The notes under the pieces were generated by a model. The model was not told the DNA's origin, made no database searches, and saw only the letters and a list, made by a program, of their open reading frames with translations. 64,000 bases of DNA from Malacoraja senta (Eukaryota): assembly GCA_038087875.1 (NCBI GenBank), contig CM075988.1, positions 26,972,001 through 27,036,000 on the forward strand, read 5' to 3'. Positions 691-63,419 of the stretch are shown here, one piece after another; the first letter of the stretch is position 1, and every line of letters starts with the position of its first letter. A program made the position numbers and the translations under genes.

Positions 691-730
691 TATTGCTGAC
701 GGTGTCTGCTCCAGGCCACGACAACTCCCC

Positions 731-975
731 TTGGGTAGCTTACACCCAACAGTGTCAACATTGCATTCTCCAATTTTAGGTAACCCCTAACAACCCCACC
801 TCCCCTTTCTCCCCCCACCCCCCACCTTCCCCTCCCGTACCCCACTTGGACTTGCCCCTTTCCCCCCCCCCTCCTCTTAGATTCCTTCCTCTGGCTTCAC
901 AGTTTGCAACTCTTCAGTCTGTCTGTCTGCTTTAATCTATGGCTTTTGATCCAACATCTGCCTATCCAACATGTC
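731..975 (+). mobile_element. Penelope-like element fragment (end of GIY-YIG ORF plus pyrimidine-rich 3' region)
   Basis: 731-783 reads LGSLHPNSVNIAFSNFR*, matching the ORF end of the PLE at 2897-2948 (LGSLHPSGTNIDFSNFK). Confidence 0.75.
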
Positions 976-1674: not shown

Positions 1675-1954
1675 TACAGCAGGGGTGCCATCTTCTGGAT
1701 GAGATGGTAATACAGCATCTTATCTCACTGCAGGTGGATATCCGGCAGATAAACCCAGTCCAGAGTCCGGCCAGTATAGCTGCCTTACATGTGTTGCCAG
1801 GATGTAATGGGATCTTGCGGTGTCCACTTGGCAATTGCTGCATCACAACTGTGAATTGCCTCAACAAAGTTAATCCTTCCTTCCTTCCTTGGGTTTTTCC
1901 TTTCCTGTTGATTGAACATCGAACAAACCCTGTTCTAGGCATGCCCTGGCCCTA

Positions 1955-3152
1955 TCCCCGAACTCTACCTCTGCTACATTGATGACTGCATTGGTGCTAC
2001 CTCCTGCACCCACTGACTTCATCAACTTCAACACCAATTCCCATTATGCACTCAAATTCATTTGGACATCTCCCTACCATTTCTTGATCTCACCGTCTTC
2101 ATCATTGGAAACAGACTATCGACTGACATCGACTACAAACCTACTGACACCCATAGCTATCTAGCCTATACATCTTCCCACCCTGCTTCCTGTAAAGACT
2201 ATCCCCTACTCTCAATTCCTCTGTCTACGCCGCATCTGCGCCCAGGATGAGGTGTTCCATACTAGGACATCGGAGATATCCTCATTCTTTAGGAAACGGG
2301 GGTTCCCCTCTTCCATTATAGATGAAGCTCTCACCAGGGTCTCCTCGATATCCTGCAGCTCCGCTCTTTCTCCCCCCCATTCATAACAAGGACAGAGTCC
2401 CCCTTGTCCTCACCTTCCACCCCATCAGCCATTGTATACAGCATGCAAACCTCCAACATTTTTGCCACCTCCAACTTGATCCCACTACTGGCCACATCTT
2501 CACCCCTTTCTGCCTTCCACAGAGATCGTTCCCTTCGAAACTCCCTGGTCAATTCGTCCCTTCCCACCCAAACCACCCCCTCCCCAGTACTTTCACCTGC
2601 AACCGCAGAAGAAGTCTTTCCAGGTGAGGCAGAGGTTCACTTGCACCTCCTCCAACCTCATCTATTGCATCTGATGTTCCAGGTGTCAACTGCTCTACCT
2701 CGGCGAGACCAAGCGCAGGCTCGCCAATCATTTCACTGCACACCTCCGCTCTGTCTGTCCTAACCAACCTGATCTCCCGGTGGCCCAGCACTTCAACTTC
2801 CCCTCCCATTCCCAATCTGACCTTTCTGTCCTGGGCCTCCTCCATTGTCAGAGTGAGGCCCAGAGCAAATTGGAGGAACAGCACCTCATATTTCACTTGG
2901 GCAGCTTACACCCCAGCGGTACGAACATTGACTTCTCTAACTTCAAATGGCACTTGCTTTTCCTCTCTCTCCATCCCCTCCCCCTTCCTAGTTCTTCCAC
3001 CAGCTTACTGTCTCCGATTACATTCTATCTCTGTCCCGCCCACTCCCCTGACATCAGTCTGAAGAAGGGTCTCGACCTGAAACGTCACCCATTCCTTCTC
3101 TCCAGAGATGCTGCCTGTCCCACTGAGTTACTCCAGCATTTTGTGTCTACCT
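1955..3152 (+). mobile_element. Penelope-like retroelement, degraded (RT C-terminus, GIY-YIG endonuclease, terminal repeat)
   Basis: YIDD motif at 1975-1986; FLDL...YKPTDTHSYL..TSSHP; YLGETKRRL; EEQHLIFHLGSLHPSG; terminal repeat with hammerhead core at 3057-3088. Multiple stops and frameshifts. Confidence 0.9.
3057..3088 (+). ncRNA. Candidate minimal type I hammerhead ribozyme in PLE terminal repeat
   Basis: GU-CUGAAGA-A-GGGUCUCGACCU-GAAAC-GUC-AC: intact core nucleotides, stem II, GUC triplet. Confidence 0.65.
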
Positions 3153-3282
3153 GAAAAATTATAATGCATGCAAACAATATCATGTAATTTTACAAAGTAA
3201 CACTCGTTAATTGAAGTCTGATTTTGCCAGCTGGTGAGATATGACAATTAGCACATTGGATTCATGGTCCTATTTATTATTA

Positions 3283-3439: not shown

Positions 3440-3565
3440 GGTGGGGGAGGGGGGGGGGGCAATTGGTGGAAGAAGGGATGGAAGAGGGTTTTGTAGTTAC
3501 CGACAATTGGAGAATTCAATGTTCATACCGTTGGGTCGTGAGGTTCCCAAGTGGAATATGAGGTA
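3440..3565 (-). mobile_element. Penelope-like fragment
   Basis: Reverse complement of the LIFHLG...NIEFSN region. Confidence 0.65.
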
Positions 3566-4243: not shown

Positions 4244-4795
4244 AGGGGCTGTCCCACAGCGGCGACCTAATCCACGAGTTCTGGCGAGTTTGCCCTCGAC
4301 TCATACTCGCAGCATGGTCGACACGAGGTCGTAGGAGGTCTTCGTAACTCTCCTTCATGCTCGAGTGTGGTCTCCATGTACTCGAGGCCTCAGCTAGGTC
4401 GCTGCATTTTTTTCAATATGTTAAAAAAAATGCCCGCGAATAAAAAAGGTCGCCATGGAAAAAAATCGATAATTTTTTTACTCGTAGGTTTAGTCGTAGT
4501 AGGTCGTAGTCGGTCGGCATGTTAATCGTAGGTAATCGAAGGTAGTCGAAGGTAGTCGAAGGTAGTCGTAGATTGTCTTCCTCATAGTCGAAGGGAGGTC
4601 GAAGGAGATCGATGGAGGTCGTCTTCACTCTCCACTATTCGGTGTCCAATTTTCCAGAAGCTAGTCATAGCTAGTCGTAGCTAGTTGAAGCTGGTCTTCA
4701 ACATAGTCGAAGGAGGTCGAAGGAGGTCTTCAACATGTCATTTTTTCAAACTCTTCTAAACTCGCCAATTAGGTCGCCCAAGTGGGACAGCCCCT
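4244..4795. mobile_element. Non-autonomous PIF/Harbinger-type MITE (family A)
   Basis: TIRs AGGGGCTGTCCCAC...GGCGACCTAAT / ATTAGGTCGCC...GTGGGACAGCCCCT; TTA on both flanks (4241-4243, 4796-4798); internal GGTAGTCGAA repeats. Confidence 0.9.
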
Positions 4796-5155
4796 TTAAA
4801 TATATTTTACATTCAATTGAAAATGCAGTCAAGGCCTTGTTTAAACTCAGAACTAAAAAGTCATAAATTTGGCAGATTAATTTCAACCATTAAGTACTTA
4901 CGTACACATTACTTGGAAGATGAGAATCTCACTGGCCTGCTGAATCCGATGGAATAAACTGCCAGTAAATAACTGCCAGATATAATACGGAAATTAAGAA
5001 AGAACACTTCAAACCCTAGTGTTTGTTTCTGTAAACATAACATTGACAACTACACGATGCTCCTCTGAGTTCCCACTACATATAAATACGTCCATTGGTG
5101 GCCAAGTAGAGATGATATTCCAAAATTCATGTTGTATTTTGGTAGACCACATTTG

Positions 5156-5508: not shown

Positions 5509-5642
5509 CTGTGTAGAAGGGAACTGCAGATGCTGGTTTATACCAATGATAAGCACAAAGTGCTGGAGTAACTCAGCAGGACAGGCAGCATTTCTGGAGA
5601 ATAAGGATGGGTGATGTTTCGAGTGGGAACCCTTCTTCAGAC
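5509..5642 (-). mobile_element. Solo PLE-terminal unit flanked by an 11-bp direct repeat
   Basis: ACTACCTCATT at 5498-5508 and 5641-5651. Confidence 0.8.
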
Positions 5643-5832
5643 TACCTCATTTTGATCCCTTCCCAGTGTTTGACCCTATTGCTTGTTTACATGGGTCATC
5701 ACTTAGTTAATTACATGTTGACTGAAAGAGCATTGGATTCATTTAAGGACTAGTTGAATCTATTGATCGTATTTCAATCAACTGGAAGCTAAGAGGTGTG
5801 GTTGTCAATGTTTGGCATATATGGATAAATAG

Positions 5833-6020
5833 ATAGACACAAAAAGCTGGAGTAACTCAGCCAGGCAGGCAGCATCTCAGGGACCAGTCTGAAAAAGGGT
5901 CTCGATCGGAAATGTCATCCATTCCTTCTCTCCAGAGATGCTGCCTGTCCCGCTGAGTTACTCCAGCTTTTTGTGTCTACCTTCGATTTAAACCAGCATC
6001 TGCAGTTCCATCCTACACAG
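5833..6020. mobile_element. PLE-terminal unit (short minus part plus full plus part) flanked by a 10-bp direct repeat
   Basis: GGATAAATAG at 5823-5832 and 6021-6030; degenerate hammerhead core near 5887-5918. Confidence 0.8.
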
Positions 6021-6608
6021 GGATAAATAGGTTCCATTTGCTGATGATCAATATTTATTCCGACAGTAGAGATTCCTGGACTTGTTCCACTTCAAGCAGT
6101 TACTATAAATATCCAAAGGGATCTTTCCTCCTTCTTTATGAAGTGGGACACTGATGCTGCAGATTGGTTTTATTTTTACGCATTTGATATTATGAAATTA
6201 TGAAGTCGCAGATTGTTTATGAGAAAAATGGTAATGAGAGAGTGATTGATGGTTAGATACGACGTGAGGTGGTTTATAAAATATTGTTCCAAACATAGTC
6301 TATATGATTGAAGAATTCAATCTGTTTTGATGAAAAATCTCATCTGAAAAATTAATGTCCCTTTCTCTGTCAGCTGTTATATATTAGCTACATCTTTGAT
6401 GTTATTTTGGATTGTAAAAGCACGTTGTCTTTATACACATTATTACACATCACTCCTTTCATTAAAAAACACACAAAATGCTGGAGTAATTTACCAGGTC
6501 AGGCATCATGGCTGGAGAACATCGATAAGTAACTTTTAACATGTGTGCGTGTATGCGTTTGTGAGTAGCTAATTAACTGTAAATGGTTAATTAAAATTAC
6601 AATGACTT

Positions 6609-7177: not shown

Positions 7178-7234
7178 GCTTTTCATTGTAACTCGGTACA
7201 CATGACAATAAACTGAACTGATAAACTGAACTAT

Positions 7235-7414
7235 TTGTTTAAGAAGGAACTGCAGATGCTGGAAAATCGAAGGTAGACAAAAATGCTGGAGAAACTCAGC
7301 GGGTGAGGCAGCATCTATGGAGCGAAGGAAATAGGCAACGTTTCGGGCCGAAAAAAGTTTTGGCTCGAACATTGCCTATTTCCTTCGCTCCATAGATGCT
7401 GCCTCACCCGCTGA
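7235..7414. mobile_element. Head-to-head PLE-terminal pair flanked by a 17-bp direct repeat
   Basis: CTGATAAACTGAACTAT at 7218-7234 and 7411-7427; ~55-bp near-perfect inverted arms. Confidence 0.85.
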
Positions 7415-11248: not shown

Positions 11249-11408
11249 GTCTGAAGAAGAGTCTCGACCTGAAATGTCACCCATTCCTTCTCTCCAAAGA
11301 TGCTGCCTGTCCCGCTGAGTTACTCCAGCATTCTGTGAAACATCACCCATTCCTTCTCTCCAAAGATCCTGCCTGTCCTGCTGAGTTACTCCAGCACTTT
11401 GTGTCTAT
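11249..11408 (+). mobile_element. Tandem partial dimer of PLE-terminal unit
   Basis: GAAA(T/C)RTCACCCATTCCTTCTCTCCAAAGAT...GAGTTACTCCAGCA occurs twice in tandem. Confidence 0.8.
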
Positions 11409-12523
11409 TTTCTGCATACGTTTACTGAATCACCTCTAGAGATGTATGTTCACAGCTATTTATCAATGCAGTTTATTACAAGCCATTAATTGGAGGACAG
11501 CAGTTTTATTTGCTATATGGCAAGAGGATTATGTAATTAGCAATTCAGAGAATTGGACTAATGATCTGGAGAATATTTCCAATCCCACTATGACAAAAAG
11601 GCAGTGTAAATACGGTTAATTAAATGAAAAAGTTTTAAAAAAGAATGGATATTTTCTAGTGTCCTTTCTTAGTTTTTTAATTAAATATATAATAATTCTA
11701 ACTAAGCCTAAATCAATAACCTTGATTCTTCAGGACTGCTCCATAAACATGTAGTGTTGGGCCACTGCTCCGGCTGGCTTGGGTTGCGATAGATGTAAGT
11801 GCAGATAGGGTCTCCCAAGAGACTTGGAAATTGTATTTTTTAATCTTTGGCACTTTATTGTAACTTGAGGATAAAGGTTGATGATCTGGTTAATCTATGG
11901 GCAATGCTGTCAATGGTGTTCTAGCTAACATCCAGCCCTTCCATCTCATAGTCTTCCAGTAACTAAACCATTTACACCATTTGGATGTGTAAGTCTGGAG
12001 CATTTGAGGCATGTCAGTGCTTTACAATTTAAATATATTTATAAAAAATATCATTTGAATGAGTATTCGCTCTTTTGTGTTGCTCAGATATCAGTTACGA
12101 CCAAAGTAACTCTTCCTCTATAACTAAGACAGGACAAGTAACTTGGCAGCAACATCCCTTTTTCCCTACACGCTTGTGCGGGAGGAGATGAATGTGACTA
12201 ATGGGTTCTTTGTAATTCAATTTTAAAATTATATGCCTTGAGAACCCTTTCCACTCCATCCCACTCTATCACATTCTTCATTAATAGTGTTTTGCGACAT
12301 TTCTAAATTAATAATTCCAAATCGTCTTATTTAGAATTATATTTCCAATGGCATTAAAAATCGAAATAAAGTGGGTCACAACTCAATGTCACATTTCAAA
12401 TGTTTTTCTACCCAAATAATTACTTTTAATCCAGCAATTGATATGCAAGGTTTAACCTGTCTGAGGTGAATGAGCATCAGAGATTGAGTGTCATATCAAA
12501 CAATTATTCTTTGCACCCACATT

Positions 12524-19393: not shown

Positions 19394-19527
19394 AATCAGT
19401 CTGAAGAAGGGTCTCGACCCGAAACATCACCCATTCCTTCGCTCCATAGATGCTGCCTCACCCGCTGAGTTTCTCCAACTTTTTGTCTAACCTTCAATTT
19501 TTCCAGTGTCTGCAGTTCTTCCTTAAA
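19394..19527 (+). mobile_element. Solo PLE-terminal unit flanked by an 8-bp direct repeat
   Basis: CAAGTCTT at 19386-19393 and 19528-19535; core GTCTGAAGAAGGGTCTCGACCCGAAACATCAC. Confidence 0.8.
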
Positions 19528-20328: not shown

Positions 20329-20433
20329 ATCTTCTTCAGTCTGAAGAAGGGTTTCGGCCCGAAACGTTGCCTATTTCCTTCGCTCCATAGATGCTGCTGC
20401 ACCCGCTGAGTTTCTCCAGTATTTTTGTGTAAC
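20329..20433 (+). mobile_element. Solo PLE-terminal unit with intact hammerhead core, flanked by an 11-bp direct repeat
   Basis: TTCTCCCTGAC at 20318-20328 and 20434-20444. Confidence 0.82.
20339..20370 (+). ncRNA. Candidate minimal hammerhead ribozyme (second subfamily)
   Basis: GU-CUGAAGA-A-GGGU(UUCG)GCCC-GAAAC-GUU-GC; stem II capped by a UUCG tetraloop; palindromic AACGUU. Confidence 0.65.
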
Positions 20434-21327
20434 TTCTCCCTGACTTCTCTCGTTTCATGCTGACTGAACAGTGCACTCATTTCGTCAATTGATTAATTAC
20501 TGGAGAAATCTCAATGGACCATTTGAAGTAAATGCCTGCAAGTTACACGCTATAGAAACAGAAGTCACGATATCAAAGAATGTGTTTTTAATCAGCTCAC
20601 TTTGAAACAAATCTTATGGAAGAGATTAGGAACAGAATGTTCTGTTTAACTACTGAGTTTAAGTAGGTCAAGGCAACATACTGTATCCATCACATCTACT
20701 GTGCAGGTTCCATTGACGACTCTTTCCAAATTTGTTGGTACTTCATAGAATTGAACAAAAAGAACTTTCATTTATATAGAACTAGCATGGCAAACCATGA
20801 TTTAAATGAGGTACAATAAAATAAACTGCATATGTTGGCAAACAGAACATAAAAACTGAAAAAGCTGTAAAAACTCAAAATGGTCGGGCAGCTTCTGCGG
20901 AAAGAGAAGCAGAGTTAACATTGAAAACCTTTCGACAGAATTGGAAATGCTTTATGTTATATCTGATATCGCACTTCATAAGGAGATGACAGGTTAAATG
21001 ACCAAATACTTTGTCAGGGAGGTAGGAGTGTCTTGAAGGTGGAAGCTAGCTAGAGGGGCAGAGGGATTTACACAATGACCTCCAAAGCTTTAGATTCAGC
21101 AGCTGGAACCACTATCACTAATGCTGGAACAATTAAGTTGAAGAATGATCAGGAATCCAGCATTGGGAAGTGTGTATTCTTTGACAGGATTTAAGGCTGG
21201 AGGAAATGATGGAGAAAAGGTGGTGCAGGGAGGAAGGAAGTGCAGACCAATGGGGGAACTGGTCACAAACGGGGCAGAATATTTGAGACTTTTTTTTTAT
21301 CAGAAGCAAACAAGCTAAGGCAGACAA

Positions 21328-21930
21328 TAGACACACACAAAATACTGGAGTAACTCAGTGGGTCACGCAGCATCTCTGGAGAAAAAGGATAGGTGACGTT
21401 TTGGGTTGGGACACCTCTTCAGACTGAATGCAGGGTTGGGAGGGGAAACTGTAAACAAGAAAAAAAACAGGTCAAATCAGGGCTGGCAAGAGATGATCTC
21501 AGGCTTGGAGATTCCCTGATAGGCTGATTGTTGACTCGAGATGGTATGATGCCAAGATGGATAAATTGTTGCAAACTGCGGAGCTGTTTAACTGACTTTT
21601 AGTGGAGGAAGAGGGGAAGGGCAGAAAAGGGAGAGGGAGAGAGAGGGGAGAGAGTGGTGTGGGTGGAGGGGAGTGTTTGTGGAAGTTACCTAAGATTAGA
21701 GAATTCAATGTTCATACTGCTGGGGTGTAAGTTACCCAAGCAAAATATGAGGTGCTGTTCCTCCAATTTGAATGTGGCCTCACTCTGGCAATGGAGGTGG
21801 CCCAGGGGAGAAAGGTCAGTGTGGGAATGGGAATGGGAATTAAAGTGATTGGCAACCAGGACATCACGTAGGCCTTGACGGACCGAACATAAGTGTTCAG
21901 CGAAATAGTTGCCGAATCTACGCTTTGTAA
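21328..21930 (-). mobile_element. Penelope-like element 3' fragment (GIY-YIG plus terminal repeat)
   Basis: ORF 21686-22000: TKRRFGNYFAEHL...VANHFNS...KLEEQHLIFCLGNLHPSSMNIEFSNLR. Confidence 0.85.
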
Positions 21931-22217
21931 GGTAGACTATGATATGGATATGGAAATAATGGTGGGAACAACGTGATCCAAAAAGTATTCTCGTGCCCAA
22001 ATGTGACAGAAGTTTTGTTTCAGATTCGATTGCCGAGGAGACAAATGTAAGTGGATATTATGGAGCAGTGTTGGGGTTACATGTTGAAGATATCAGCTTA
22101 TCCTCCCAGTATTTAGATGGAGAAAATGTCCTCTGATCGAGGGCTGCCTGTCAGATGAGTTGTTGGATAAAGAGAGGCAGTGGAAGGATGGTGGGGTAGG
22201 CCGAGACACACACAGAG

Positions 22218-25893: not shown

Positions 25894-25974
25894 TAGATAG
25901 ACACAAAATGCTGGAGTAACTCCACGGGACAGGCAGCAATTGGTGACGTTTCGGGACGAGACCCTTCTTCAGAC
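25894..25974 (-). mobile_element. PLE-terminal unit with hammerhead core
   Basis: Reverse complement reads GTCTGAAGAAGGGTCTCGTCCCGAAACGTCACC. Confidence 0.75.
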
Positions 25975-27215
25975 AGGAAACGTTACTGAGTTAGGCTGGT
26001 GCTGGAACAGCGTTTTAAATGTGTTCTTAATTATTTTTAAGTGTTTACAAATTATATAATATTCATGTTCAGTAGTTAAGATACACTTCTGATGGTATTG
26101 TGGGCAACTTGTAACACATTTGCTGACACTGCTGCAGTTATTATGTTAATTATTTTGTTTAAGTATTCACAGAGGAATCTCTGAAGTATTTGTCTACTAA
26201 CAGCATGAACAGTCATCACTCGGTTCTTCGTTGTCTAATTAATATGTAGATTTGAATGTGAGTTAAATCTATGTCTATCTTCTTTTGTATATTATATTGC
26301 CAGGTAATTCCAAGATCAATATGTAATAATGTCTTGGGAATGTGTTATCCTGCAGAATAAATCTGTGTACATATTTTAGCATGGAGAGAAAGCTTAAGAT
26401 AAATAGAGAAGAGAACATCTTTTCTCCCTAATCTCTTTATTCACATTATTTTTTCTATTAAATCCAGCTCCAAGTTAAAATGCATGATCCTGAATCATCA
26501 GTCCATGCAAGGGCTTAGCATCAAACCTTCCAAGGGTGTACATATACTGCAGAGACATTGACAAAATAATATCTGCCATGATGCTCATTATGGCTTTAAT
26601 TTTGGACCAACTATTTTTTTTATGAGCTAAAGATTTTTTTATTTTGCCAATGTTATGAACACATCACGTGGAAAATTAACACAAAATAAAGTTTCCAGGA
26701 AAGTATTAGAATTAAAATGTCATGTCATCCTGAAGATAGGAATGAAACTATTCAACCAATTGTTTATCACTTTGGCTGCGAGGAGTTACAACCCCTTTTA
26801 GTTTGGGTTCTCGAACACAATGATGGACAATCAAACTGTCACTCTTTTATAATACTGAAAGTCTTTCAGCTGTGCCCTCTTCAAATAGATGGTTTATTGA
26901 TCACGTCTCTACAAAATATTGCTTTTGCTGTAATAGCTGTGGCTTAAATGTCAACCAACATGTTCTGTTGATTTGCACGTCAATACATACACATTGTTTC
27001 TCCTGTCTCCTCTTGACTACTCCAGGGATTTTAGAGCAATCGTTGCCCCAGTAGATATTGCGTATGATTGATTTTATTTCCATCTCATTTCAATCGTCAG
27101 TAGCATCAGCCAGTTTTCTTTAACGTAGTCAAACCAAAATCCCAAGATTCTCCATAGAAGAATTATCTCCTTATTGTAAATGGAGATGAGAGTGGGGACA
27201 ATGTGGCAAGGGCTA

Positions 27216-27309
27216 GTCTGAAGAAGGGTCTCGACTTGAAGCGTCACCCATACCTCTCCAGAGAAGCTGCCTGTCCAGCTAAATTACTCCAGCACTTTAT
27301 GTGTATCTT
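27216..27309 (+). mobile_element. Solo PLE-terminal unit flanked by a 13-bp direct repeat
   Basis: TGGCAAG(G/A)GCTAG at 27204-27216 and 27310-27322. Confidence 0.78.
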
Positions 27310-27699
27310 TGGCAAGAGCTAGGACAGGTTGGGTTAACATTTCTAAAATTTCCATAACTCAAGCTAAACCAACCCAATTATGGAGTTGAAAACCAAGCAT
27401 CCATTAATGATTTTGTTTCAGTTATTTCTCTCTCTATTGGCATAGCCTGGTCTACTAGTGTTGGTTCAAAGGGCCTACAGTTAGGAACACCTCATGATTA
27501 AGGATCCTCTTCTTTTCGTGTCCATCTTGTTACAAATGTTGACCTCGCTGTCATCATCCGTCCTGAAAAAGACGCAAGCTTCCGGCGACAATCAGTGGAA
27601 GCCATCACTTGTCACAATAGATGATGGTGGAAGCAGAATTAGCTCAGGTTACTTGTAATTTCTTACCCCGCGACATGGACGCTTCTGCTATGGCGCCAT

Positions 27700-27793
27700 G
27701 ATTGTGGATGATCAGCCATGATCACATTGAATGGCGGTGCTAGCTCGAAGGGCCGAATGGCCTACTCCTGTACCTATTATTTATGTATCTATG
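27700..27793 (+). mobile_element. CR1 3' terminal fragment
   Basis: ggatgatcagccatgatcacattgaatggcgg...cctactcctg. Confidence 0.8.
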
Positions 27794-33929: not shown

Positions 33930-34220
33930 AGCACATCAGCTGACCTTCCATTTGCACCTCTTCCAATGTTCACTGCACACATTTCGATCCTTCCTCCCCT
34001 CCTCCCTCTGTCTTCACAATCCTTCAGTCTCACACCTCATGCTTTAATACTGGCCTTTGTTCCAACCCTCGCCTGTGTCCCCCTCTTGTCACACTTTGTC
34101 TACTGTTTCTCTCTCCCCTACAATCAGTCTGAAGGAGGGTCTCAACCCAAAACGTCACCTATCCATGTTCTCCAGAGATGCTGCCTGACCTGCTGAGTTA
34201 CTCCAGCATTTGTGTCCTTC
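33930..34220 (+). mobile_element. PLE 3' region and terminal repeat
   Basis: Pyrimidine-rich region, then cagtctgaaggagggtctcaacccaaaacgtcacc...gagttactccagc. Confidence 0.7.
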
Positions 34221-36145: not shown

Positions 36146-36250
36146 ACCAGAGTTAGGGTTAGGGTTAGAGTCTGAAGAAGGGTCTTTGAAACGTCTCCAG
36201 AGATGATGCATTACCCACTGAGTTACTCCAGCTTTTTGTGTCTATCCTTG
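36146..36250 (+). mobile_element. PLE-terminal unit preceded by a short (TTAGGG) tract, flanked by an 8-bp direct repeat
   Basis: GTTCAGGA at 36138-36145 and 36251-36258; GTTAGGGTTAGGGTTAG at 36152-36168. Confidence 0.72.
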
Positions 36251-36298
36251 GTTCAGGAGTCTGCCTTGTCTCTCCTGAAAGGGTGGTAAAGATGTCTT

Positions 36299-36526
36299 TT
36301 TGTTTAAGAAGGAACTGCAGATGCTGGAAAATCCCAGGTACACAAAAATGCTGGAGAAACTCAGCGGGTGCAGCAGCATCTATGGAGCGAAGGAAATAGG
36401 CAACGTTTCGGGCCGAAACCGTTCTTCAGACTGAAGAAGAAGGGTTTCAGCCCGAAACGTTGCCTATTTCCTTCGGTCCATGGATGCTGCTGCACCCCCT
36501 GAGTTTCTCCAGCATTTTTGTGTACC
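36299..36526. mobile_element. Head-to-head PLE-terminal pair with two hammerhead cores, flanked by a 15-bp direct repeat
   Basis: TGGTAAAGATGTCTT at 36284-36298 and 36527-36541; ~95-bp inverted arms centred near 36430. Confidence 0.88.
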
Positions 36527-37224
36527 TGGTAAAGATGTCTTGTTAAGATACCCCTTGCTTTCCTTGCAAGTTAAACATTTCATTGACAAAAATATACAGG
36601 AAGGAGTTAAGTGTTGCTCTGTGCAAAGCTTACTTTGTATGTGTAAGAACTCCCTGACATTCCGTGCACCAATAACACAGATTTTATTCGACAATTTATC
36701 AAATGTCCAATAATTCAAATCACCTAAAAGCTCACAGAAATTTCTACTGAACACCATTAACTATTATCTTATTTCATTTGTGTGATTAATGTTCAGACCT
36801 ATTCATATTGATTTCAATGGTATGTATATGAAACATATCTGCCTCTGCTAAATGGGTTTTGATAACAAGGAAGAGATTGTGATTTGCATTTTAATACAAT
36901 CAATAATTATAATCTTCTCAATGTAGACATGAATTTATTACTGTTTGAGGAGTCTAAACCAGACATCCTACTGGTAGTCACTTTGTGATAAGGGGCACCT
37001 CTCCATGACAAATCTCCAGGAATTAAGTGTTCATCCTAACACTGCAAGACCTTTGACAAAGGACTTGTTTTGTGTAGTGAATGCATCATCTGGTGATGTG
37101 GTCCATATTCAGGGATTCAGCAGCCAACCTAAATGAGTTTTGGTTGTGTGGCTGTATGGTGAACACACATTTCACTGTGCGAACTGGCACACGTGACAAA
37201 TAAATGTATCTTGCATCTTGAGTA

Positions 37225-37813: not shown

Positions 37814-38881
37814 CATAGATACATAGATACATAGAAAATAGGTGCTGGAGTAGGCCATTCGGCCCTTCGAGCCTGCACTGCCATTCAATATGATCATGGC
37901 TGATCATCCAACTCAGTATCCCGTACCTGCCTTCTCTCCATACCCCCTGATCCCTTTAGCCACAAGGGCCACATCTAACTCCCTCTTAAATATAGCCAAT
38001 GAACTGGCCTCAACTACCCTCTGTGGCAGAGAGTTCCAGAGATTCACCACTCTCTGTTTGAAAAAGTTTTTCCTCATCTCGGTCTTAAAGGATTTCCCCC
38101 TTATCCTTAAGCTGTGACCCCTTGTCCTGGACTTCCCCAACATCGGGAACAATCTTCCTGTATCTAGCCTGTCCAACCCCATAAGAATTTTGTACGTTTC
38201 TATAAGATCCCCTCTCAATCTCCTAAATTCTAGCGAGTATAAGCCAAGTCTATCCAGTCTTTCTTCATATGAAAGTCCTGACATCCCAGGAATCAGTCTG
38301 GTGAACTTTCTCTGCACTCCCTCTATGGCTATAATGTCCTTCCTCAGATTTGGAGACCAAAACTGTACGCAATACTCCAGGTGTGGTCTCACCAAGACCC
38401 TGTACAACTGCAGTAGAACCTCCCTGCTCCTATACTCAAATCCTCTTGCTATGAAGGCCAACATACCATTCGCTTTCTTCACTGCCTGCTGCACCTGCAT
38501 GCCTACTTTCAATGACTGGTGTACCATGACACCTAGGTCTCGCTGCATCTCCCCATTTCCTAATCGGCCACCATTTAGATAATAGTCTGCCTTCCCGTTT
38601 TTGCCACCAAAGTGGATAACCTCACATTTATCCACATTATACTGCATCTGCCAAACATTTGCCCACTCACCCAGCCTATCCAAGTCACCTTGCAGTCTCC
38701 TAGCATCCTCCTCACAGCTAACACTGCCCCCCAGCTTAGTGTCATCCGCAAACTTGGAGATGTTGCTTTCAATTCCCTCGTCCAGATCATTAATATAAAT
38801 TGTAAATAGCTGGGGTCCCAGCACTGAGCCTTGTGGTACCCCACTAGTCACTGCCTGCCATTGTGAAAAGGACCCGTTTAC
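37814..38881 (-). mobile_element. Young CR1/HER1 LINE, 5'-truncated, open ORF2 C-terminus
   Basis: ORF 37913-38896: SGVPQGSVLGP, FADD, LVRPHLEYCVQFWSP, TRGH; (TATGTATC)n tail. Confidence 0.97.
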
Positions 38882-38882
38882 T

Positions 38883-38960
38883 TCAGCCATGATCACATTG
38901 AATGGCGGTGCTGGCTCGAAGGGCGAATGGCCTACTCCTGCACCTATTGTCTATTATCTA
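38883..38960 (+). mobile_element. CR1 3' terminal fragment, inverted relative to its neighbour
   Basis: tcagccatgatcacattgaatggcgg...cctactcctgcacctattgtctatt. Confidence 0.85.
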
Positions 38961-47500: not shown

Positions 47501-48827
47501 GCAGGGGTTGCTATCCATGCCTTGCTAGGGAAACGCAACAGGTTGTGTCACTCATTACCTCTGAGGCTGCACAGTGGAAGCAGTTAGTGTTGGTTGTCTG
47601 TGTGGAGTTTGCACGCTGTTCCTGTGACCACAAGAGTTTCCTAGGGAAATCCCACATCTCAAAAACTTGTTGCTGTCTTAATTAGCAACCATAAATAGCC
47701 CCAAGTAGACTTGGGGGGGAGATAGGTAGGGTGGGGTTTGTGATGTCCATGAATGGGATGTGAGAGAGACGAGATTACAGGAAACTTCGTGGAAAATGGG
47801 ACTGATAGAAAAGCTTTCTGCACCAACATAAACTCAATGGGCTGAATGGCCTCACTGCACATTGTGCAGAAGTGCTGGGTCCAATTTCCAGTGTGGCTCA
47901 GAGTGCACGATCAGGCACTTCCCTTCAGCCTAGTACTGGAAAATACCAGCACAATACATCGGAAGTGTTTTGTTCAACCAGGAAGTCACAGATAGAGGAT
48001 GGTCACAAACATAAATTAAATAGAAAATTAGGAGATGCTTCTTTAGCCAGGAACTGGTTAAAAAGTGGAGCAGCTGAAATAAACTGCACTGGTGGATTTA
48101 CAAGGAATTTGAAAATAGATTATGTTGATGGGATTTATAAAGGAAAGTGAGGAAACCTTGGGGAAAAGAATGATATTGTAATCCTGATTGCCTGACCTAA
48201 TTGCCTGATTCAGCTGTGTAAATTGCTGGAGTAACTCAACAAGTCAGGCAGCATCTGTGGAGACAATGGATAGGTGACATGTTGGGTCATCAGATAACAC
48301 AAAAGTTATTTTTTGTTAAAACCTTGCAACTTGATATCTCTGGGGTCTATGTTGCACTTTAATAACATTTGAACTGTCTTGTTCTGCAGAGTAAAAGTGT
48401 TCACATAATGGCTCGCTTTATCAATTTAATGAGCAAATGCACAGATACTTCCAATTAAAACTAACTGCCATTGAATGAAATGCTGGATCATCGCAATAAC
48501 ATTGGTTGGAGCAGTTCCTAAAACATCATGGGAACACTGAAGGTGCAAAAATATCTCTATAAATTAGCACACTGCCCCTATGTATTAATTAAAATTTAAT
48601 TTTAAACCCACACTGCAAATATTTTGATCCTTTTAAAATGTTACTTGCAATAAATCTCATGAAGTGATAGTGGAGCTTATAGAACCATAATTACAAAGAA
48701 ATTGTAGTGCATAATTTGGGACAATGAATAATCCATGTTTCCTTACAGCATGGGAGGCCAAATGGGCCAACTAAATCTATACCACCTCACAAAACAATGC
48801 CACCTCCACTAATGTTCATTGGGACAA

Positions 48828-48925
48828 TCAGTCTGAAGAAGGTTCCTGAGCTGAAACTTTGCCTGTCCGTTGTCTCCACAGACACTGCCTGACACACTGA
48901 GTTCCTCCAGCACTTTGTGTTTTGC
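48828..48925 (+). mobile_element. Degenerate PLE-terminal unit
   Basis: tcagtctgaagaaggttcc...gaaac...ctgagttcctccagcactttgtg. Confidence 0.7.
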
Positions 48926-50491: not shown

Positions 50492-51024
50492 GGGGCAATG
50501 GTAGAGTTGCTGCCTAGAGCTGTTGCCTCGAGTTGCTGCCTCGAGCTGCTGCCTCACAGCTCCAGAGACCCGGGTTCGATCCTGTTTACAGGAGCTGTCT
50601 GTACGTAGTTTGCACAATCTCCCTGTGACCACGGGTTTCATCCGGGTGCTCCAGTTTCCTCCCACATTCCAAAGAAGTGCAGGTTTGTTGGTCATCGGTG
50701 CCGGCTCTGATTTATTTTGAACCTTATGATACCTCCAGCTTCTCTCTCCCCTGACACTCAGTCTAAAGAAGGGTCTGGACCTGAAATGTCACCTATTCCT
50801 TCACTCCAGAGATGCTGCCTGTCCCACTGAGTTTTGCATTTTGTGTCTGTCTTCGGTGTAAACCAGCATCTGCAGTTCCTTCCTGCACAGGTTGATTGTA
50901 GGTTAATTGGCTTCTATAAACTATCCCTAGTGTGTATGATTGAACTAGGTGTGTGGGTAATAGCTGGTCAGCATGGACTCGGTGGGCCGAAGGGCCTGTT
51001 TCCACGCTGTATCTCCAAACTAAA
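50492..51024 (+). mobile_element. HE1-type SINE interrupted by a PLE-terminal insertion (~50695-50888)
   Basis: SINE head with GGTTCGATCC; PLE unit cagtctaaagaagggtctggacctgaaatgtcac; SINE resumes at caggttgattgtaggttaattggc. Confidence 0.85.
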
Positions 51025-52657: not shown

Positions 52658-53659
52658 ACAGTTTGTTACAGAGATCCAATGTTTAGTTTCATTGTGCTGA
52701 CTGATGATGGCATTGAGTGGCAGTCCTCCCAATCCACTAGGATATTCCTGGATGCAGTAGCTTGGACATTGAGTCCTTCTAACCATCCCGCTGGGCATCA
52801 GGAGATGGTGAGAGGATGATGAGGGACGAGAGGCAGCATGAGAAGGTTCCCCAGGGTTGCTCCGAAAACCTCAAGGGCCCTGGGCTAGATTGTAGCTTTG
52901 GAAAAGATGAGTACAGAGAGGTGGGGAGTCAGCAACCAGGGAACTGCGCTGAAGAGAACATTAGGGAGGGATTGCTGGAAGGTCCCTTTCTCTCTATGGA
53001 ATACAAACATCTGACAGCAGGAGTATGGGCGCCATTACCCAGACCCACAGCCCCTCCACTAATGCCACTTGACCTATTGAGTCTTTGCATAATTTTCTGT
53101 TATATTTTTTATTTTTGATTCTTTAGAGACACAGCGTAAAAACAAACCCTTTGGCCCACTGGGTCCACACCGACCAACAATCACACATAAACAAGGTTTA
53201 TTCTACATACGAGGGATAATTTACAAAGCCAATTAACCTAAAAATATCCACGTCTTTGGAATGTGGAGGAAACCGGAGTACCTGGAGAAAACTACCAAGT
53301 CACAAGGAGAATGTACAAACTCCATACAGACAGCATCCATAAAGCCCTGTCTCACTGTGCGAGTTGACCCACGAGTGACCCCGAGTGAAAGACTCGTGGT
53401 TGCGTACGAGACTCCAAGTTTATGATCCAGAGTTTAACCGAGTTCCCACGGGTATGTCTAAGTTTGCCGTTTACGTCTCATTTCTGCGATGTTCCAAGTT
53501 CGTCTCCCGAGTGTACCAAGTTCCTCTCCCGTTAATCTTGAGGCAACAATGTATATCGACGTGTTAAAAAATCATCACATGTTAAAAAAATGATGTCATG
53601 CTTTTTTTTTACATACTTTAAAAAGCCTCCCTTGTTTAAATTGGCTCATTTGGAGAAAA

Positions 53660-54030
53660 TGTCTGCAAGAAGGCTATTGGAGTCCAGGATGGTGATGTTT
53701 TTTGTTCGAGTGCTGTATGCTGCAGCCCTTAATGTGATGCAAGGACGCTTGTGTAATGAAGGCAGAAGAGAGAGAGTAAAGAGGAAAATTAAGAAGAGGT
53801 CTCAGTGGGCGAAGCCCCTGTTTCAAAGGAGATCTCTCTTTGGACAGTATGAAAAGCTGCTTAATGTGCTGTGCGAAGAGGATAAATCTGCATTTAAAAA
53901 TTTCATCAGAATTTCACCTGAGCTCTTTAATGAGCTGAAGAATAACTTGGGACATCTGCTGATGAAACATGACATGGTATTGAGAAAGGCACTGGAACTG
54001 CACTTTGGGTTCTTATTTGCCATCGGGTAA
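53660..54030 (+). pseudogene. Truncated Harbinger (HARBI1-like) transposase N-terminus
   Basis: WAKPLFQRRSLFGQYEKLLNVLCEEDKSAFKNFIRISPELFNELKNNLGHLLMKHDMVLRKALE resembles the F.NF.R.S...F..L region that precedes the HTH of Harbinger transposases; no DDE domain visible. Confidence 0.75.
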
Positions 54031-55990: not shown

Positions 55991-56845
55991 CTTGCACACT
56001 CTCTGTGATAGGGTAATTAATGCTCAATATTCTGCACAATGACAAGCAAGGTGCATAAGTTCAGTAAACAATTCCCTACTTGCAAATGCAATGGAGATTG
56101 ACATCTATTATTGGTCACTTCTTAGTGAAAATAAATTGCCATTACGTTTAATTAACCATAATTATTTCCCCAGTGAGTAAATCAGGTTACTTTGCTTTTA
56201 ATATTTTGTGCCATCTTTTTCCTCATTTCTGTAATAGAACATGACAGTTTTCAAATGCAGTATCAACTGAAGATAATCGTACATGAGCAGTCGACAGCAA
56301 TCAACAGCTTTGATCAAACATTATTTTTAATAGGTTGAATGGGGAGACAGAGAGGAGGAAGCATGGTTTTGTGAAAGATTAAACCCTTAAATCACGCAGG
56401 GCTGATTGAAAGGCCAAAGATAACAGCAACAGAAATAGAGAATGTGACACAGGATACACTTGCTGAGTGCTGAGATTTTTAGTCCTCGGGCTACCAGAGA
56501 TGGAGATGGGTGTGGAGATATTCGGAGTGATAATTTCTAAGTCAAGGCATTGTTGAGAAGGTAGTGGTGATGATTTATGGATTGTATCTGCTTGGCTCAG
56601 GATTCAGAGAATTTGATTTGTAAAAAGAATAAACTAATTATTCACTTCAGCTAACCTGCAGCAGAGGATTAGTACGTAATTGCTTCTTCCAAGTATGTAT
56701 TTCCTCCTTCTGTATGACACTGGCTTGCTGGAGAACAAAACCAGTGACAAAAACAGAGTAGACAGGGAACCTTCAGTAGGTCAGGCAGCCTCTGTGGGAA
56801 GAGAGACCAAGTTAATGTAGGAGTCCATCAGAATTGGGACTGTAA

Positions 56846-57343
56846 AGGGCCCTTGACTCATACTCGCAGCATGGTCGACATGAGGTCGTAGGAGGTCTTC
56901 GTAACTCTCCTTCATGCTCGAGAGTGGTCTCCGTGTATTCGAGGCCACAGCGAGGTCGCGGCGTTTTTTTCAATATGTTAAAAAAATGCCCGCAAATAAA
57001 AAAAGGTCGCCATGGAAAAAAATCTATATATTTTTTACTCGTAGGTTTAGTCATAGTAGGTCGTAGTCGGTCGGCATGTTAGTCGTAGGTAATCGAGGGT
57101 AGTCGAAGGTAGTCGAAGGTAGTCGAAGGTAGTCGTAGATAGTCTTCATCATAGTCAAAGGGAGGTCGAAGGGAGGTCGAAGGAGGTTGGCTTCACTCTC
57201 CACTATTCGGTGTCCAATTTTCTCGAAGTTAGTCGCAGCTAGGCGTAGCTAGTCTTCAACATAGTCGAAGGAGGTCTTCAACATGACATTTTTTCAAACT
57301 CTCCTAAACTCGCCAATTAAGTCGCCCAAGTGGGACAGCCCCT
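56846..57343. mobile_element. Harbinger MITE family A, second copy with left TIR largely deleted
   Basis: Collinear and highly similar to 4293-4795; right TIR GTCGCCCAAGTGGGACAGCCCCT intact. Confidence 0.9.
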
Positions 57344-58715
57344 TCAGAAAACAAGTCAGTATTTCATTGCAGGGGGTGGGGGGGGGGGGACAACGACACT
57401 CACACACTGTCCACACACTCACACGCAGTGTCCACACTCACACGCAGTGTCCACACTCACACACTCACACACTGATACCAAGTACTTGAACACATTCTAG
57501 GCAAACACAACTATTACTAAATAAGTGACAAAGTGGTGGAGTAACTCAGCAGGTCATACATGTCATATTATATTCTCATCACTATGATATTATCACTATG
57601 ATAATGAAGCTGTCCTGAATTATAAAGAAGCTGCAATATTATTTCACAATGCCAGTGATCCTTTAAATTCATGTTATTATTTGATTTCAGGGAAGATTTC
57701 AGCAAAGGCTAATAAAGACATCATGGCTATTTCAAAGGGCCAGCATAGCCATGAGCATCGAATGGTCTCCTTCCAAGCTGCACCTTTATATGATTCTACA
57801 ATATTGACATTTTCCTCCTTGTTAACTTGGAGTTTCACGGTGCAGATTCCCAGATGTTCTTCATTAACAATATCCCTTTTGCAATTAGGTTTTGTTGTTT
57901 TACCATGATTTTATCCCATTATCTAGTCCAAAATCACTGCAATTTGTTGAATCATTTTGTGTGTGTTGTTCTTCCTTGTCCAAATCAACCAATTTTCATC
58001 CCACGGCATAATTCATCGTAACTCTGAAGCAGTACTTATTGATAGATTGAATCATTATTATAGCCTGTATATTTATCTATGATTTAATTTTCTGTGTGTT
58101 TAGAATTGCTCTTTCATGCATCATCAATATCAGCTTTTGCCAGGTCAAGGACACTCCACAATTGATGTTACCTGCGTTCAGTACATTGGCTCTTGGTAAC
58201 GTCAATTTAATGATTGTCTTAAAAAAACCCAGTAAATTAACAATAAAGTTAATACTGTAAGATAATTAAAAATGACAAGAATGGCAATAAATAAACATTA
58301 AAAAAAGATAATTAAGCACGAATTACAACCGTCAGAAAGGTCAATTGTGCCGATACATTGGCTAGCTTCAGATTGAGTTCTGAGTTTGACTGTAGTTTAA
58401 CTTACTTTTTCCTCTTTCTCTTCCTTCAGAATCATTTTTTTTTAAAATTAATTTGAATGTTCTATTTATAATATAAGCTATTTTGGTCCTTAGAACATTT
58501 TAAACCCAATGAAAAGACTTTCATTGAAATGAGTTAATTGAACTCATCAATCTTGCATCCTGGGCTGACAATAGGAGAACATAATTATTTTTCAAAGGAT
58601 ACAGCCATTGTTTGCTTATTATATAGTCTGTGACAGGATAGATGACCAACTCATCATTGTCTCCAACAAGGTGTGCTTGGCAAGGGGAAATTGTATTTCC
58701 CCTTGCCAATTCCCC

Positions 58716-60889
58716 TGGCAATTAGTTCTAAAAGGGTTGACGGTGGATATGCAATGGAAGGCATTTAAAGACTGCATGGATGAACTACAAAAATTGTTCA
58801 TCCCAGTTTGGCAAAAGAATAAATCAGGGAAGGTAGTGCATCCGTGGATAACAAGGGAAATCAGGGATAGTATCAAAGCAAAAGTTGAAGCGTACAAATT
58901 AGCCAGAAAAAGCAGCCGACCAGAGGACTGGGAGAAATTCAGAGACCAGCAGAGGAGGACAAAGGGCTTAATTAGGAAAGGGAAAATAGATTATGAAAGA
59001 AAACTGGCAGGGAACATAAAAACTGACTGCAAAAGTTTTTATAGATATGTGAAGAGAAAGAGATTAGTTAAAACAAATGTAGGTCCCTTGCAGTCAGAAA
59101 CAGGTGAATTGATCATGGGGAACAAGGATATGGCGGACCAATTGAATAACTACTTTGGTTCCGTCTTCACTAAGGAAGACATAAATAATCTGCCGGAAAT
59201 AGCAGGGGGCCGCGGGTCAAAGGAGATGGAGGAACTGAGTGAAATCCAGGTTAGTCGGGAAGTGGTGTTGGGTAAATTGAATGGATTAAAGGCCGATAAA
59301 TCACCAGGGCCAGAAAGGCTGCATCCCAGAGTACTTAAGGAAGTAGCTCCAGAAACAGTGGATGCATTAGTGATAATTTTTCAAAACTCTTTAGATTCTG
59401 GAGTAGTTCCTGAGGATTGGAGGGTAGCAAACGTAACCCCACTTTTTAAGACGGGAGGGAGAGAGAAAACGGGGAATTACAGACCAGTTAGTCTAACATC
59501 GGTAGTGGGGAAACTGCTAGAGTCAGTTATTAAAGATGGGATAGCAGCACATTTGGAAAGTGGTGAAATCATTGGACAAAGTCAGCATGGATTTACGAAA
59601 GGTAAATCGTGTCTGACGAATCTTATAGAATTTTTCGAGGATGTAACTAGTAGAGTGGATAGGGGAGAACCAGTGGATGTGTTGTATCTTGACTTTCAGA
59701 AGGCTTTCGACAAGGTACCACATAAGAGATTAGGATACAAACTTAAATCACACGGTATTGGGGGTTCAGTATTGATGTGGATAGAGAACTGGCTGGCAAA
59801 CAGGAAGCAAAGAGTAGGAGTAAAAGGGTCCTTTTCACAATGGCAGGCAGTGACTAGTGGGGTACCGCAAGGCTCAGTGCTGGGACCCCAGCTATTTACA
59901 ATTTATATTAATGATCTGGACGAGGGAATTGAAAGCAACATCTCCAAGTTTGCGGATGACACTAAGCTGGGGGGCAGTGTTAGCTGTGAGGAGGATGCTA
60001 GGAGACTGCAAGGTGACTTGGATAGGCTGGGTGAGTGGGCAAATGTTTGGCAGATGCAGTATAATGTGGATAAATGTGAGGTTATCCACTTTGGTGGCAA
60101 AAACGGGAAGGCAGACTATTATCTAAATGGTGGCCGATTAGGAAATGGGGAGATGCAGCGAGACCTGGGTGTTATGGTACACCAGTCATTGAAAGTAGGC
60201 ATGCAGGTGCAGCAGGCAGTGAAGAAAGCGAATGGTATGTTGGCCTTCATAGCAAGATGATTTGAGTATAGGAGCAGGGAGGTTCTACTGCAGTTGTACA
60301 GGGTCTTGGTGAGACCACACCTGGAGTATTGCGTACAGTTTTGGTCTCCAAATCTGAGGAAGGACATTATAGCCATAGAGGGAGTGCAGAGAAGGTTCAC
60401 CAGACTGATTCCTGGGATGTCAGGACTTTCATATGAAGAAAGACTGGATAGACTTGGCTTATAGTCGCTAGAATTTAGGAGATTGAGAGGGGATCTTATA
60501 GAAACGTACAAAATTCTTATGGGGTTGGACAGGCTAGATGCAGGAAGATTGTTCCCGATGTTGGGGAAGTCCAGGACAAGGGGTCACAGCTTAAGGATAA
60601 GGGGGAAATCCTTTAAGACCGAGATGAGGAAAATCTTTTTCACACAGAGAGTGGTGAATCTGTGGAACTCTCTGCCACAGAGGGTAGTTGAGGCCAGTTC
60701 ATTGGCTATATTTAAGAGGGAGTTAGATGTGGCCCTTGTGGCTAAAGGGATCAGGGGGTATGGAGAGAAGGCAGGTATGGGATACTGAGTTGGATGATCA
60801 GCCATGATCATATTGAATGGCGGTGCAGGCTCGAAGGGCCGAATGGCCTACTCCTGCACCTATTTTCTATGTATCTATGTATCTATGTA
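58716..60889 (+). mobile_element. Young CR1/HER1 LINE, 5'-truncated, complete RT domain, two nonsense mutations
   Basis: KSPGP, NYRPVSLTS, QHGF, YLDFQKAFDKV, GVPQGSVLGP, FADD; TGA at 60258-60260 and TAG at 60462-60464; (TATGTATC)n tail. Confidence 0.98.
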
Positions 60890-63257: not shown

Positions 63258-63419
63258 GGTTTGGGCATTGATTGGGTTTCCTCCAGGTGCATCTGCTTCC
63301 TCCCATATTCCAAAGACAAGCTGGGGGGTGAACTGGCTGCAGTAAATGACTCCTTTGTGTGGGTACGTAACATAGAGAAGATGATGAGTATCTGCAAGAG
63401 AGCAAGTTACAAGCAATAG

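What the first reader, a model, noticed from the sequence alone, without database searches (positions are those of the whole stretch)
20339..20370. Dispersed family of minimal hammerhead-ribozyme cores in Penelope-derived terminal units
Seen: the motif GU-CUGAAGA-A-[stem II]-GAAAC-GUH recurs throughout the window. Best copies are 3057-3088, 19399-19430, 20339-20370, 25943-25974(-), 27216-27247 and 36400-36464 (both strands); degenerate copies lie near 5610, 5887, 11249, 21393, 34127, 36170, 48831 and 50761. Two subfamilies change sequence but keep pairing: stem II is GGGU-CUCG-ACCC or GGGU-UUCG-GCCC, and the first helix I pair is U-A (GUC|AC) or U-G (GUU|GC). Helix III is only the loop-less palindrome ACGU, which cannot fold in a monomer. 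Established: PLE terminal repeats carry minimal type I hammerheads, short-helix-III variants cleave as dimers, and an extra A after A9 occurs in a natural viroid hammerhead. Inference: these are dimer-dependent self-cleaving RNAs at high density. Helix I looks only 2 bp long, so activity is uncertain.
Basis: partly seen in the sequence, partly recalled or inferred. Interest (0 to 1): 0.75.

Follow-up and report, generated by a model that had tools for sequence, protein, structure and literature searches.

The report
Penelope retroelement minimal hammerhead relics
The repeated 32-base motif matches the known minimal hammerhead ribozyme carried in the end piece of Penelope-like jumping genes, and it sits here in many short, mostly broken inserted copies that are likely inert, so the catch is correct but the kind is already described.

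Summary
The motif is real: 3 strict matches, none in 100 shuffles. It fits the published minimal hammerhead of Penelope-like elements letter for letter, including the extra base after A9, loop-less ACGU helix III and 2-bp helix I. Two copies follow a Penelope endonuclease remnant, one of them with reverse-transcriptase remnants too. About 35 pieces lie in the window, and 275,593 contigs of one run that holds this DNA lay on one copy. Pairing shows no covariation above shuffles, CpG positions decay, and no two intact copies lie close on one strand, so 'active ribozymes at high density' is not supported. Many copies are 95- or 135-base solo insertions with target duplications that start 0-12 bases before the core and keep the cut site whole, so their RNA template was likely uncut. 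An initiator-like TCAGTC at that edge suggests, untested, that transcription starts 3 bases before the core. The scan found this kind before on other DNA. Verdict: new member of a known kind.

The parts
20339..20370 (+). Focal minimal hammerhead motif, subfamily B; all consensus features kept; predicted cut after 20368
20329..20432 (+). Solo terminal unit (short form) holding the focal motif; 5' end 8-12 bases before C3
20318..20328 (+). Left target-site duplication of the focal unit (11 bases exact; right copy at 20434-20444)
   Evidence: 7 of 2000 random pairs reach 11 exact
20330..20350 (+). Self-complementary 5' flank plus core; predicted 9-bp hairpin that covers the catalytic core
1855..2947 (+). 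Broken Penelope-like ORF remnant: RT end (YIDD), thumb, partly deleted linker, GIY-YIG endonuclease
2948..3056 (+). Pyrimidine-rich 3' untranslated part of the terminal repeat, ending in the initiator-like or acceptor-like TCAG
   Evidence: sequence; role inferred
3057..3153 (+). Hammerhead motif (3057-3088, subfamily A, G10.1-U11.1 wobble) and short tail directly behind the ORF remnant
21689..21988 (-). Second GIY-YIG remnant
21331..21431 (-). Terminal unit about 265 bases behind that remnant; motif broken at G12
19394..19524 (+). Solo unit, long form with tail; helix III palindrome broken; 11-base target duplication with one mismatch
5512..5643 (-). Solo unit, long form; 14-base target duplication (one mismatch) that ends directly at C3; helix III palindrome broken
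27215..27309 (+). Solo unit, short form; 13-base target duplication (one mismatch) ending 1 base before C3; A15.1 changed
25894..25974 (-). Solo unit with intact core, 3-bp stem II and an internal deletion downstream
36286..36529 (.). Head-to-head inverted pair of subfamily B units; both motifs flawed
5828..6025 (.). Head-to-head pair: truncated inverted unit plus a long unit with G8 changed
7231..7414 (.). Head-to-head pair, both units starting inside stem II
11249..11412 (+). Partial head-to-tail tandem; first motif decayed, second unit starts at about G12
34081..34220 (+). Unit of a further subfamily with upstream pyrimidine-rich repeat; core broken
48826..48925 (+). Unit of a further subfamily; helix III broken
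50741..50892 (+). Long unit with upstream repeat; G5 changed
20851..20947 (-). Older, strongly decayed relative of the unit (a second at 56749-56840, minus strand)

Best explanation
These are inserted, mostly broken copies of the terminal unit of a Penelope-like retroelement, each starting with the element's minimal hammerhead motif, which likely cuts RNA only in the parent element's transcript and only with a second copy or the element's protein as helper. Shown: the motif follows RT and GIY-YIG remnants; solo copies carry target duplications; 3' ends fall in two groups about 35-40 bases apart; 5' ends crowd at the edge of the core; the cut site is kept whole. Inferred: reverse transcription starts at one of two internal sites about 60-75 or 95-110 bases behind the cut site (the Penelope 'tail'), copies an uncut RNA, and often ends just 5' of the core, giving 95- or 135-base solo units. 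After insertion the copies decay, fastest at CpG, with no sign of selection on the ribozyme. Inferred, weaker: that 5' edge is the RNA's start.
For: Linkage: full-length relatives of the 2675-2941 protein carry Pfam RVT_1 plus GIY-YIG (5 of 6 scanned) and align in order over 1855-2947; a second GIY-YIG remnant precedes the 21422 copy. Motif: it fits the published consensus CUGANGAH G..C GAAAN palindrome NUH, and 2-bp helix I occurs in the Culex, Oikopleura and Drosophila virilis rows (PMC4209133 supplement). Ends: of 33 pieces, 18 end 57-77 and 9 end 93-109 bases behind the cut site, 6 earlier; 10 start 0-12 bases before C3, 7 further upstream, 8 inside the motif, 6 beyond it, 2 near the cut site. 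Target duplications in 4 of 16 copies examined, at lengths reached by 6-27 of 2000 random pairs. In run X1 summed depth rises from 1.4 to 26.6 million between bins 3032-3044 and 3058-3070, and the best-supported loose 5' ends are at 3054, 3056, 3057 and 3099. Decay: core CpG columns 56 of 76 match the majority, other core columns 155 of 162; G12 and G16.2 to A are among the listed variants in all four runs. Precedent: the anole Poseidon hammerhead cut only with protein present, uncut RNA was the main template, and RT started internally at the tail (PMC11167929).
Against: No full-length element with two terminal repeats was seen, since no genome was held. No cleavage or RNA-end data: all runs laid were contigs. 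Non-CpG core columns are slightly better kept than downstream non-CpG columns (155 of 162 against 516 of 573, p=0.026), which could mean some selection, although the downstream set holds subfamily differences and copies were partly found through the core. The depth jump is inflated because other subfamilies differ upstream (loose ends at 3054 look like repeat sequence), and depth is no copy number. Two of 33 pieces start within 2 bases of the cut site by script; one is an artefact of an internal deletion (41365) and one an old loosely aligned piece (51775). 1643 loose-end rows and 714 joint rows were not shown.
Confidence: 0.85

Rival explanations
1. The dispersed copies are working dimer-dependent ribozymes that cut host transcripts at high density.
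For: Three copies keep all features; the family is huge, so thousands of intact copies are likely; head-to-tail joints of about 92-96 bases exist in 13-35 contigs per listed row in X1; published dimers and trimers of a minimal hammerhead cut weakly.
Against: 11 of 14 copies are broken; no two intact copies lie close on one strand; the active dimer has only 8 intermolecular pairs and is predicted 6-20 kcal/mol less stable than two free monomers for the three intact copies (the model ignores core tertiary contacts and had no known-active control); CpG decay runs through G12 and G16.2.
Confidence: 0.07
2. The solo units are monomer offspring of non-autonomous tandem retrozymes (circular RNA replicators) rather than short cDNAs of the Penelope RNA.
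For: Head-to-tail joints from 3147-3149 back to 3054-3059 in three DNA-type runs; one partial tandem at 11249-11412; animal retrozymes are reported as derivatives of Penelope terminal repeats, with one cartilaginous fish among the positives (bioRxiv 10.64898/2026.07.22.740005).
Against: Units begin at the core's 5' edge, not at the cut site as a cleaved unit would, and are not circularly permuted; listed tandem joints sum to about 200 of 275,593 contigs in X1; no tandem with two complete motifs is in the window.
Confidence: 0.08
3. The sharp 5' edge is not an RNA start: reverse transcriptase stops at a protein-bound splice acceptor (pyrimidine tract plus CAG) just before the core, as the Drosophila Penelope intron ends at helix I.
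For: A 100-base pyrimidine-rich tract ends in CAG at 3055-3057; the D. virilis intron end maps to the 5' end of helix I; the published consensus has a U-rich stretch upstream.
Against: No joint skipping the tract is among the rows shown, also not in the run guessed to be RNA; two older relatives have CCAATT without AG before the core.
Confidence: 0.25
4. The hammerhead likeness is chance; the stretch is only a conserved protein-binding or promoter part of the element.
For: No Rfam hammerhead hit; no covariation above shuffles; RNAalifold finds no consensus structure; downstream blocks are about as conserved.
Against: All catalytic positions, the extra base, G10.1-C11.1 and the palindrome match the published Penelope consensus at the expected place behind the endonuclease; loop II differs between subfamilies while the core does not.
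Confidence: 0.03

Closest known systems
Minimal hammerheads (min-HHR) in terminal repeats of animal Penelope-like elements (Cervera and De la Pena 2014, PMC4209133)
   Same: CUGANGA core, one extra base before stem II, G10.1-C11.1, loop-less palindromic helix III, position behind the endonuclease, thousands of mostly single copies per genome. The Culex row has the same 2-bp helix I with C-G helix III.
   Different: Stem II is only 4 bp (many published rows have 5-8). No cartilaginous fish is named in Table S1 or the 56 rows of Figure S3 that I read.
Anolis Poseidon element PAc (Frangieh et al. 2024, PMC11167929)
   Same: Hammerhead in the terminal repeat, internal RT starts that define a 30-40 base tail, uncut RNA as main template.
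   Different: In PAc the ORF starts in stem II; here there is no ATG in the motif. Relatives of this endonuclease carry a CX4CxxC linker, a mark of Neptune/Nematis rather than Poseidon. Protein dependence is untested here.
Animal non-LTR retrozymes (bioRxiv 10.64898/2026.07.22.740005; PMC7229834 seen as a listing only)
   Same: Non-coding, hammerhead-bearing units related to Penelope terminal repeats; monomers spread over the genome.
   Different: Defined by tandem units with complete motifs; here tandems are rare and none in the window has two complete motifs.
Penelope insertions in Adineta vaga (Arkhipova et al. 2013, PMC3846280)
   Same: Solo terminal repeats, head-to-head inverted pairs with palindromic junctions, 8-10 base target duplications, optional 31-base tail, microhomology deletions, an initiator-like motif noted in the repeat.
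   Different: There solo repeats are few and of about 200 bases; here they dominate and start at the ribozyme core.

Membership tests
Penelope minimal hammerhead (min-HHR) | Core CUGANGA ... GAAA ... UH | tested here: met
   Focal copy and majority letters
Penelope minimal hammerhead (min-HHR) | One extra base between A9 and 10.1, and G10.1-C11.1 | tested here: met
   Extra A in 14 of 15 rows; G-C or its CpG-decayed G-U form in 13 of 15
Penelope minimal hammerhead (min-HHR) | Palindromic, loop-less helix III | tested here: met
   ACGU in 10 of 19 rows, others mostly CpG decay
Penelope minimal hammerhead (min-HHR) | Short helix I closing the motif (2-5 bp in published rows) | tested here: met
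   2 bp in the 13 correctly registered copies; third pair not formed; 2-bp cases published
Penelope minimal hammerhead (min-HHR) | Compensatory changes in the stems | tested here: inconclusive
   Only one-sided wobble changes; not above shuffles in 19 rows. A both-sided helix I change in two old copies depends on a manual register that MAFFT does not reproduce
Penelope minimal hammerhead (min-HHR) | Location in the terminal repeat of a Penelope-like element | tested here: met
   Two copies behind GIY-YIG remnants
Penelope minimal hammerhead (min-HHR) | Self-cleavage as a dimer or with protein help | not testable with these tools
   Only energy estimates
Endonuclease-bearing Penelope-like element | One ORF with RT followed by C-terminal GIY-YIG | tested here: met
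   Co-linear remnants 1855-2947 against 609-891 aa relatives with both Pfam domains; the window fragments alone gave no Pfam hit for either domain
Endonuclease-bearing Penelope-like element | Optional 30-40 base tail, inverted 5' copies, variable target duplications | tested here: met
   Two 3' end groups; inverted pairs; 11-14 base duplications
Neptune clade | CX2-5CxxC linker before the endonuclease | tested here: inconclusive
   Present in all 6 long relatives and in the skate hit P0002; the window copy has lost most of it; the linker is shared with Nematis; no tree was built
Non-LTR retrozyme | Tandem units with two or more complete hammerheads | tested here: not met
   Not in this window; rare head-to-tail joints exist elsewhere in the genome
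Non-LTR retrozyme | Circular RNA of unit length | not testable with these tools
   Only contigs were available
Rfam hammerhead families | Score at the gathering threshold | tested here: not met
   No hammerhead match at E<=1 in the window or E<=10 around the focal copy

The most novel reading that the evidence does not exclude
The element's promoter starts transcription at the A of TCAGTC, three bases before the catalytic core. The solo units are then complete 'strong-stop'-like cDNAs of the RNA's capped 5' end, made from the internal tail start sites and inserted by the hundred thousand without any separate SINE master. This would explain at once the sharp 5' edge, the 2-bp helix I (only three bases exist upstream to pair) and the uncut site, and would make the 5' hammerhead a switch that can remove a capped 31-base leader.
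Probability: 0.3. Interest if true: 0.5.

Novelty: new member of a known kind. Interest (0 to 1): 0.22.

Why it matters
As a ribozyme find it adds one more fish family to a class described in 2014. The useful point is anatomical: a very large set of solo units with mapped ends shows that uncut hammerhead RNA is the usual template, which agrees with the one in vitro study, and the sharp 5' edge offers a direct test of where Penelope RNA starts and what the ribozyme is for, a question the papers read here leave open.

Tried and rejected
No genome was held, so no genome-wide alignment was made. Rfam gave no hammerhead hit. A pattern for the downstream part found nothing in viral contigs and three loci in metagenome contigs that match over only 20-27 bases, show no protein match and were dropped as chance. 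Pfam on window fragments and solved structures gave nothing useful. RNAalifold gave no consensus structure; single-strand folding z-scores were -0.1 to 1.1 for four unit stretches. A longer helix I was looked for and not found. No RNA holder was listed for the stretch searched; run X18 is only guessed to be RNA and comes from another organism, so its 4,581 contigs are not used as evidence of expression. A coding role for the unit, as in PAc, was rejected: no ATG lies in the motif and subfamilies differ by single-base indels. Spliced forms were not among the joints shown. Literature: no paper held both 'hammerhead ribozyme' and 'elasmobranch'; none held all of 'Penelope-like', 'hammerhead', 'transcription start site', 'initiator'; one held 'solo pLTR'. 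Lunse et al. on dimer cleavage is not held and is known here only through a review. The preprint's supplements, which may list its cartilaginous-fish families, could not be seen. Earlier scan notes by sequence, by place and by two further word sets returned nothing.

Full report
Observation. The motif is at the stated place: GU CUGAAGA A GGGU UUCG GCCC GAAA CG U U GC at 20339-20370. A strict pattern finds 3 copies against none in 100 shuffles. A model built from 19 window copies lists 35 pieces at E<=0.1, 36 with filters off, about one per 1.8 kb. Scored feature by feature, 3 of 14 core-bearing copies keep everything: 20339, 3057 with a G-U at 10.1-11.1, and 25974 with a 3-bp stem II (the 27938 row was mis-registered and is decayed anyway).

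What the unit is. The 3057 copy lies 110 bases behind a broken ORF. Full-length relatives found without a word index carry Pfam RVT_1 and GIY-YIG (5 of 6 scanned have both) and align in order across 1855-2947. A second GIY-YIG remnant lies before the 21422 copy. The best named protein hits are skate sequences at 73-75% identity, so the window is likely from a skate or ray. The relatives carry a CX4CxxC linker, which the literature assigns to Neptune and Nematis, not Poseidon; the window copy has lost most of the linker and no tree was built, so the clade is a lead only.

Anatomy of the copies. Of 33 pieces aligned to other copies, 18 end 57-77 and 9 end 93-109 bases behind the cut site, and 6 end earlier. 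The gap between the two groups matches the optional 30-40 base tail of Penelope elements. At the 5' side 10 start 0-12 bases before C3, 7 further upstream, 8 inside the motif, 6 beyond it and 2 near the cut site, both doubtful (the script counts 20339 as upstream because its flank resembles the repeat, while its target duplication puts the start 8-12 bases before C3). Four of 16 copies examined have 11-14 base target duplications (the 3' ends were set by eye), lengths reached by 6-27 of 2000 random pairs. In two of them the duplication reaches to 0 or 1 base before C3, so the helix I 5' strand there may come from the target by microhomology. Several head-to-head pairs occur, as described for Penelope.

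Beyond the window. One run holding 79% of the sampled words (X1; it may be the source sample) gave 275,593 contigs on the 361-base stretch around 3057, and two runs of other organisms gave 310,257 and 345,520. Summed depth rises about 18-fold from the bin before the motif to the core bin; against the endonuclease bins (up to 11.7 million) the unit is 2-7 times deeper. Depth is no copy number and upstream divergence of subfamilies inflates the jump. The top loose 5' ends are at 3054 (repeat-like flanks), 3056 and 3057 (AT-rich flanks with low agreement, as expected of insertion junctions) and 3099. None at the cut site is among the rows shown, with 1643 rows hidden. Head-to-tail joints of 91-96 bases exist but are few among those listed.

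Is the ribozyme under selection? Within the window, no. Core CpG columns match the majority in 56 of 76 cells, other core columns in 155 of 162. G12 to A (about 10-13%) and G16.2 to A (7-18%) appear in all four runs. Pairing is 90% kept against 27-54% when slid, but the covariation score is reached by 205 of 500 shuffles and only 1 of 17 pairs changes on both sides. Against my reading: non-CpG core columns are a little better kept than downstream ones (p=0.026), though that set includes subfamily-diagnostic columns. Between subfamilies loop II changes while the core stays, as expected if selection acts on the parent elements.

Could it cut? Helix III needs a second molecule; the dimer has 8 intermolecular pairs. 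For the three intact copies the active dimer is predicted 6-20 kcal/mol above two free monomers, and the 5' arm of stem II prefers the bases behind the cut site in 3057 and 20339. In 20339 the 5' flank pairs with the core over 9 bp. These models omit tertiary contacts and had no active control, so they only say that help would be needed. Published minimal hammerheads were inactive as monomers and weak as dimers, and the anole one cut only with its protein.

Mechanism. Shown: linkage, ends, duplications, decay. Inferred: internal RT start at the tail sites, copying of uncut RNA, insertion. The reason for the sharp 5' edge is open. TCAGTC is the initiator consensus TCAGTY (PMC1779564), and 10 of 14 copies fit YYANWYY there, with its A at 3056, where loose ends crowd. 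The motif is short and partly forced by the core's own CU, and one copy pair extends to 8-12 bases upstream, so I give this 0.3. The rival is an RT stop at a splice acceptor, with the Drosophila intron as precedent.

Comparison and novelty. The motif meets every sequence feature of the published Penelope minimal hammerhead, including 2-bp helix I in three taxa. It works like, and is filed as, a member of that kind; cleavage is untested. I found no cartilaginous fish in the 2014 tables read and no paper under the searches, but one such species was positive in a 2026 preprint whose supplements I could not see. Forty earlier scan notes hold the same words, several with the same verdict on other genomes; they are not independent support.

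Papers seen. PMC4209133: main text parts 1-2 of 4, supplement parts 1-2 of 3. PMC11167929: parts 1-2 of 4. bioRxiv 10.64898/2026.07.22.740005: part 1 of 5 and passages. PMC8557442, PMC6765202, PMC2377424, PMC3846280, PMC1779564: passages. Lunse et al.: not held, title seen in a reference list. Hammerhead numbering, CpG decay and the cap-derived extra G are from my own knowledge.

Verdict. Real, correctly named, already known as a kind; mostly relics. Interest 0.22.

Noticed in passing
window 27632-27709 (-): Single weak match to the CPEB3 HDV-like ribozyme (24.5 bits, gathering 35; E 0.038 in the whole window). P2, P3 and the 3' strand look right but P1 is broken; a LINE-like end lies just upstream. 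No second copy in the window, and no CPEB-like exon recognised by eye in minus-strand frames of 42 aa or more below 36000.
   Followed up: partly
window 20851-20947 (-) and 56749-56840 (-): Older relatives with CCAATT before the core and TTAACT downstream; in a manual register the second helix I pair would be U-A instead of G-C, but MAFFT aligns them otherwise.
   Followed up: partly
window 20349-20372 and 3067-3090: The 5' arm of stem II can pair with the bases behind the cut site in both subfamilies, which changed A to G at 11.4 and 1.1 in parallel; a possible off-state fold.
   Followed up: partly
window 36150-36172 and 643-784: A unit starts directly behind a few TTAGGG repeats; another endonuclease end fragment lies 40 bases from a (CCCTAA)8 run.
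   Followed up: no
window 3090-3110 and equivalents: Pyrimidine tract plus NAG followed by ATG is kept in all subfamilies about 20 bases behind the cut site; acceptor-like. Inverted junctions also crowd at 3099-3100.
   Followed up: no
window 730-960 (+) and 3440-3564 (-): Further Penelope endonuclease end fragments without a hammerhead unit recognised behind them.
   Followed up: no
window 58575-63443 and 37814-38950: Young CR1/L2-type LINE copies (98% alike), two of them as an inverted pair.
   Followed up: no
window 4292-4796 and 56849-57344: A 500-base repeat with internal 10-base tandem units, 88% alike, unclassified.
   Followed up: no
window 53542-54030 (+): 162-aa frame that by recall resembles the start of a Harbinger-type transposase; not searched.
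   Followed up: no
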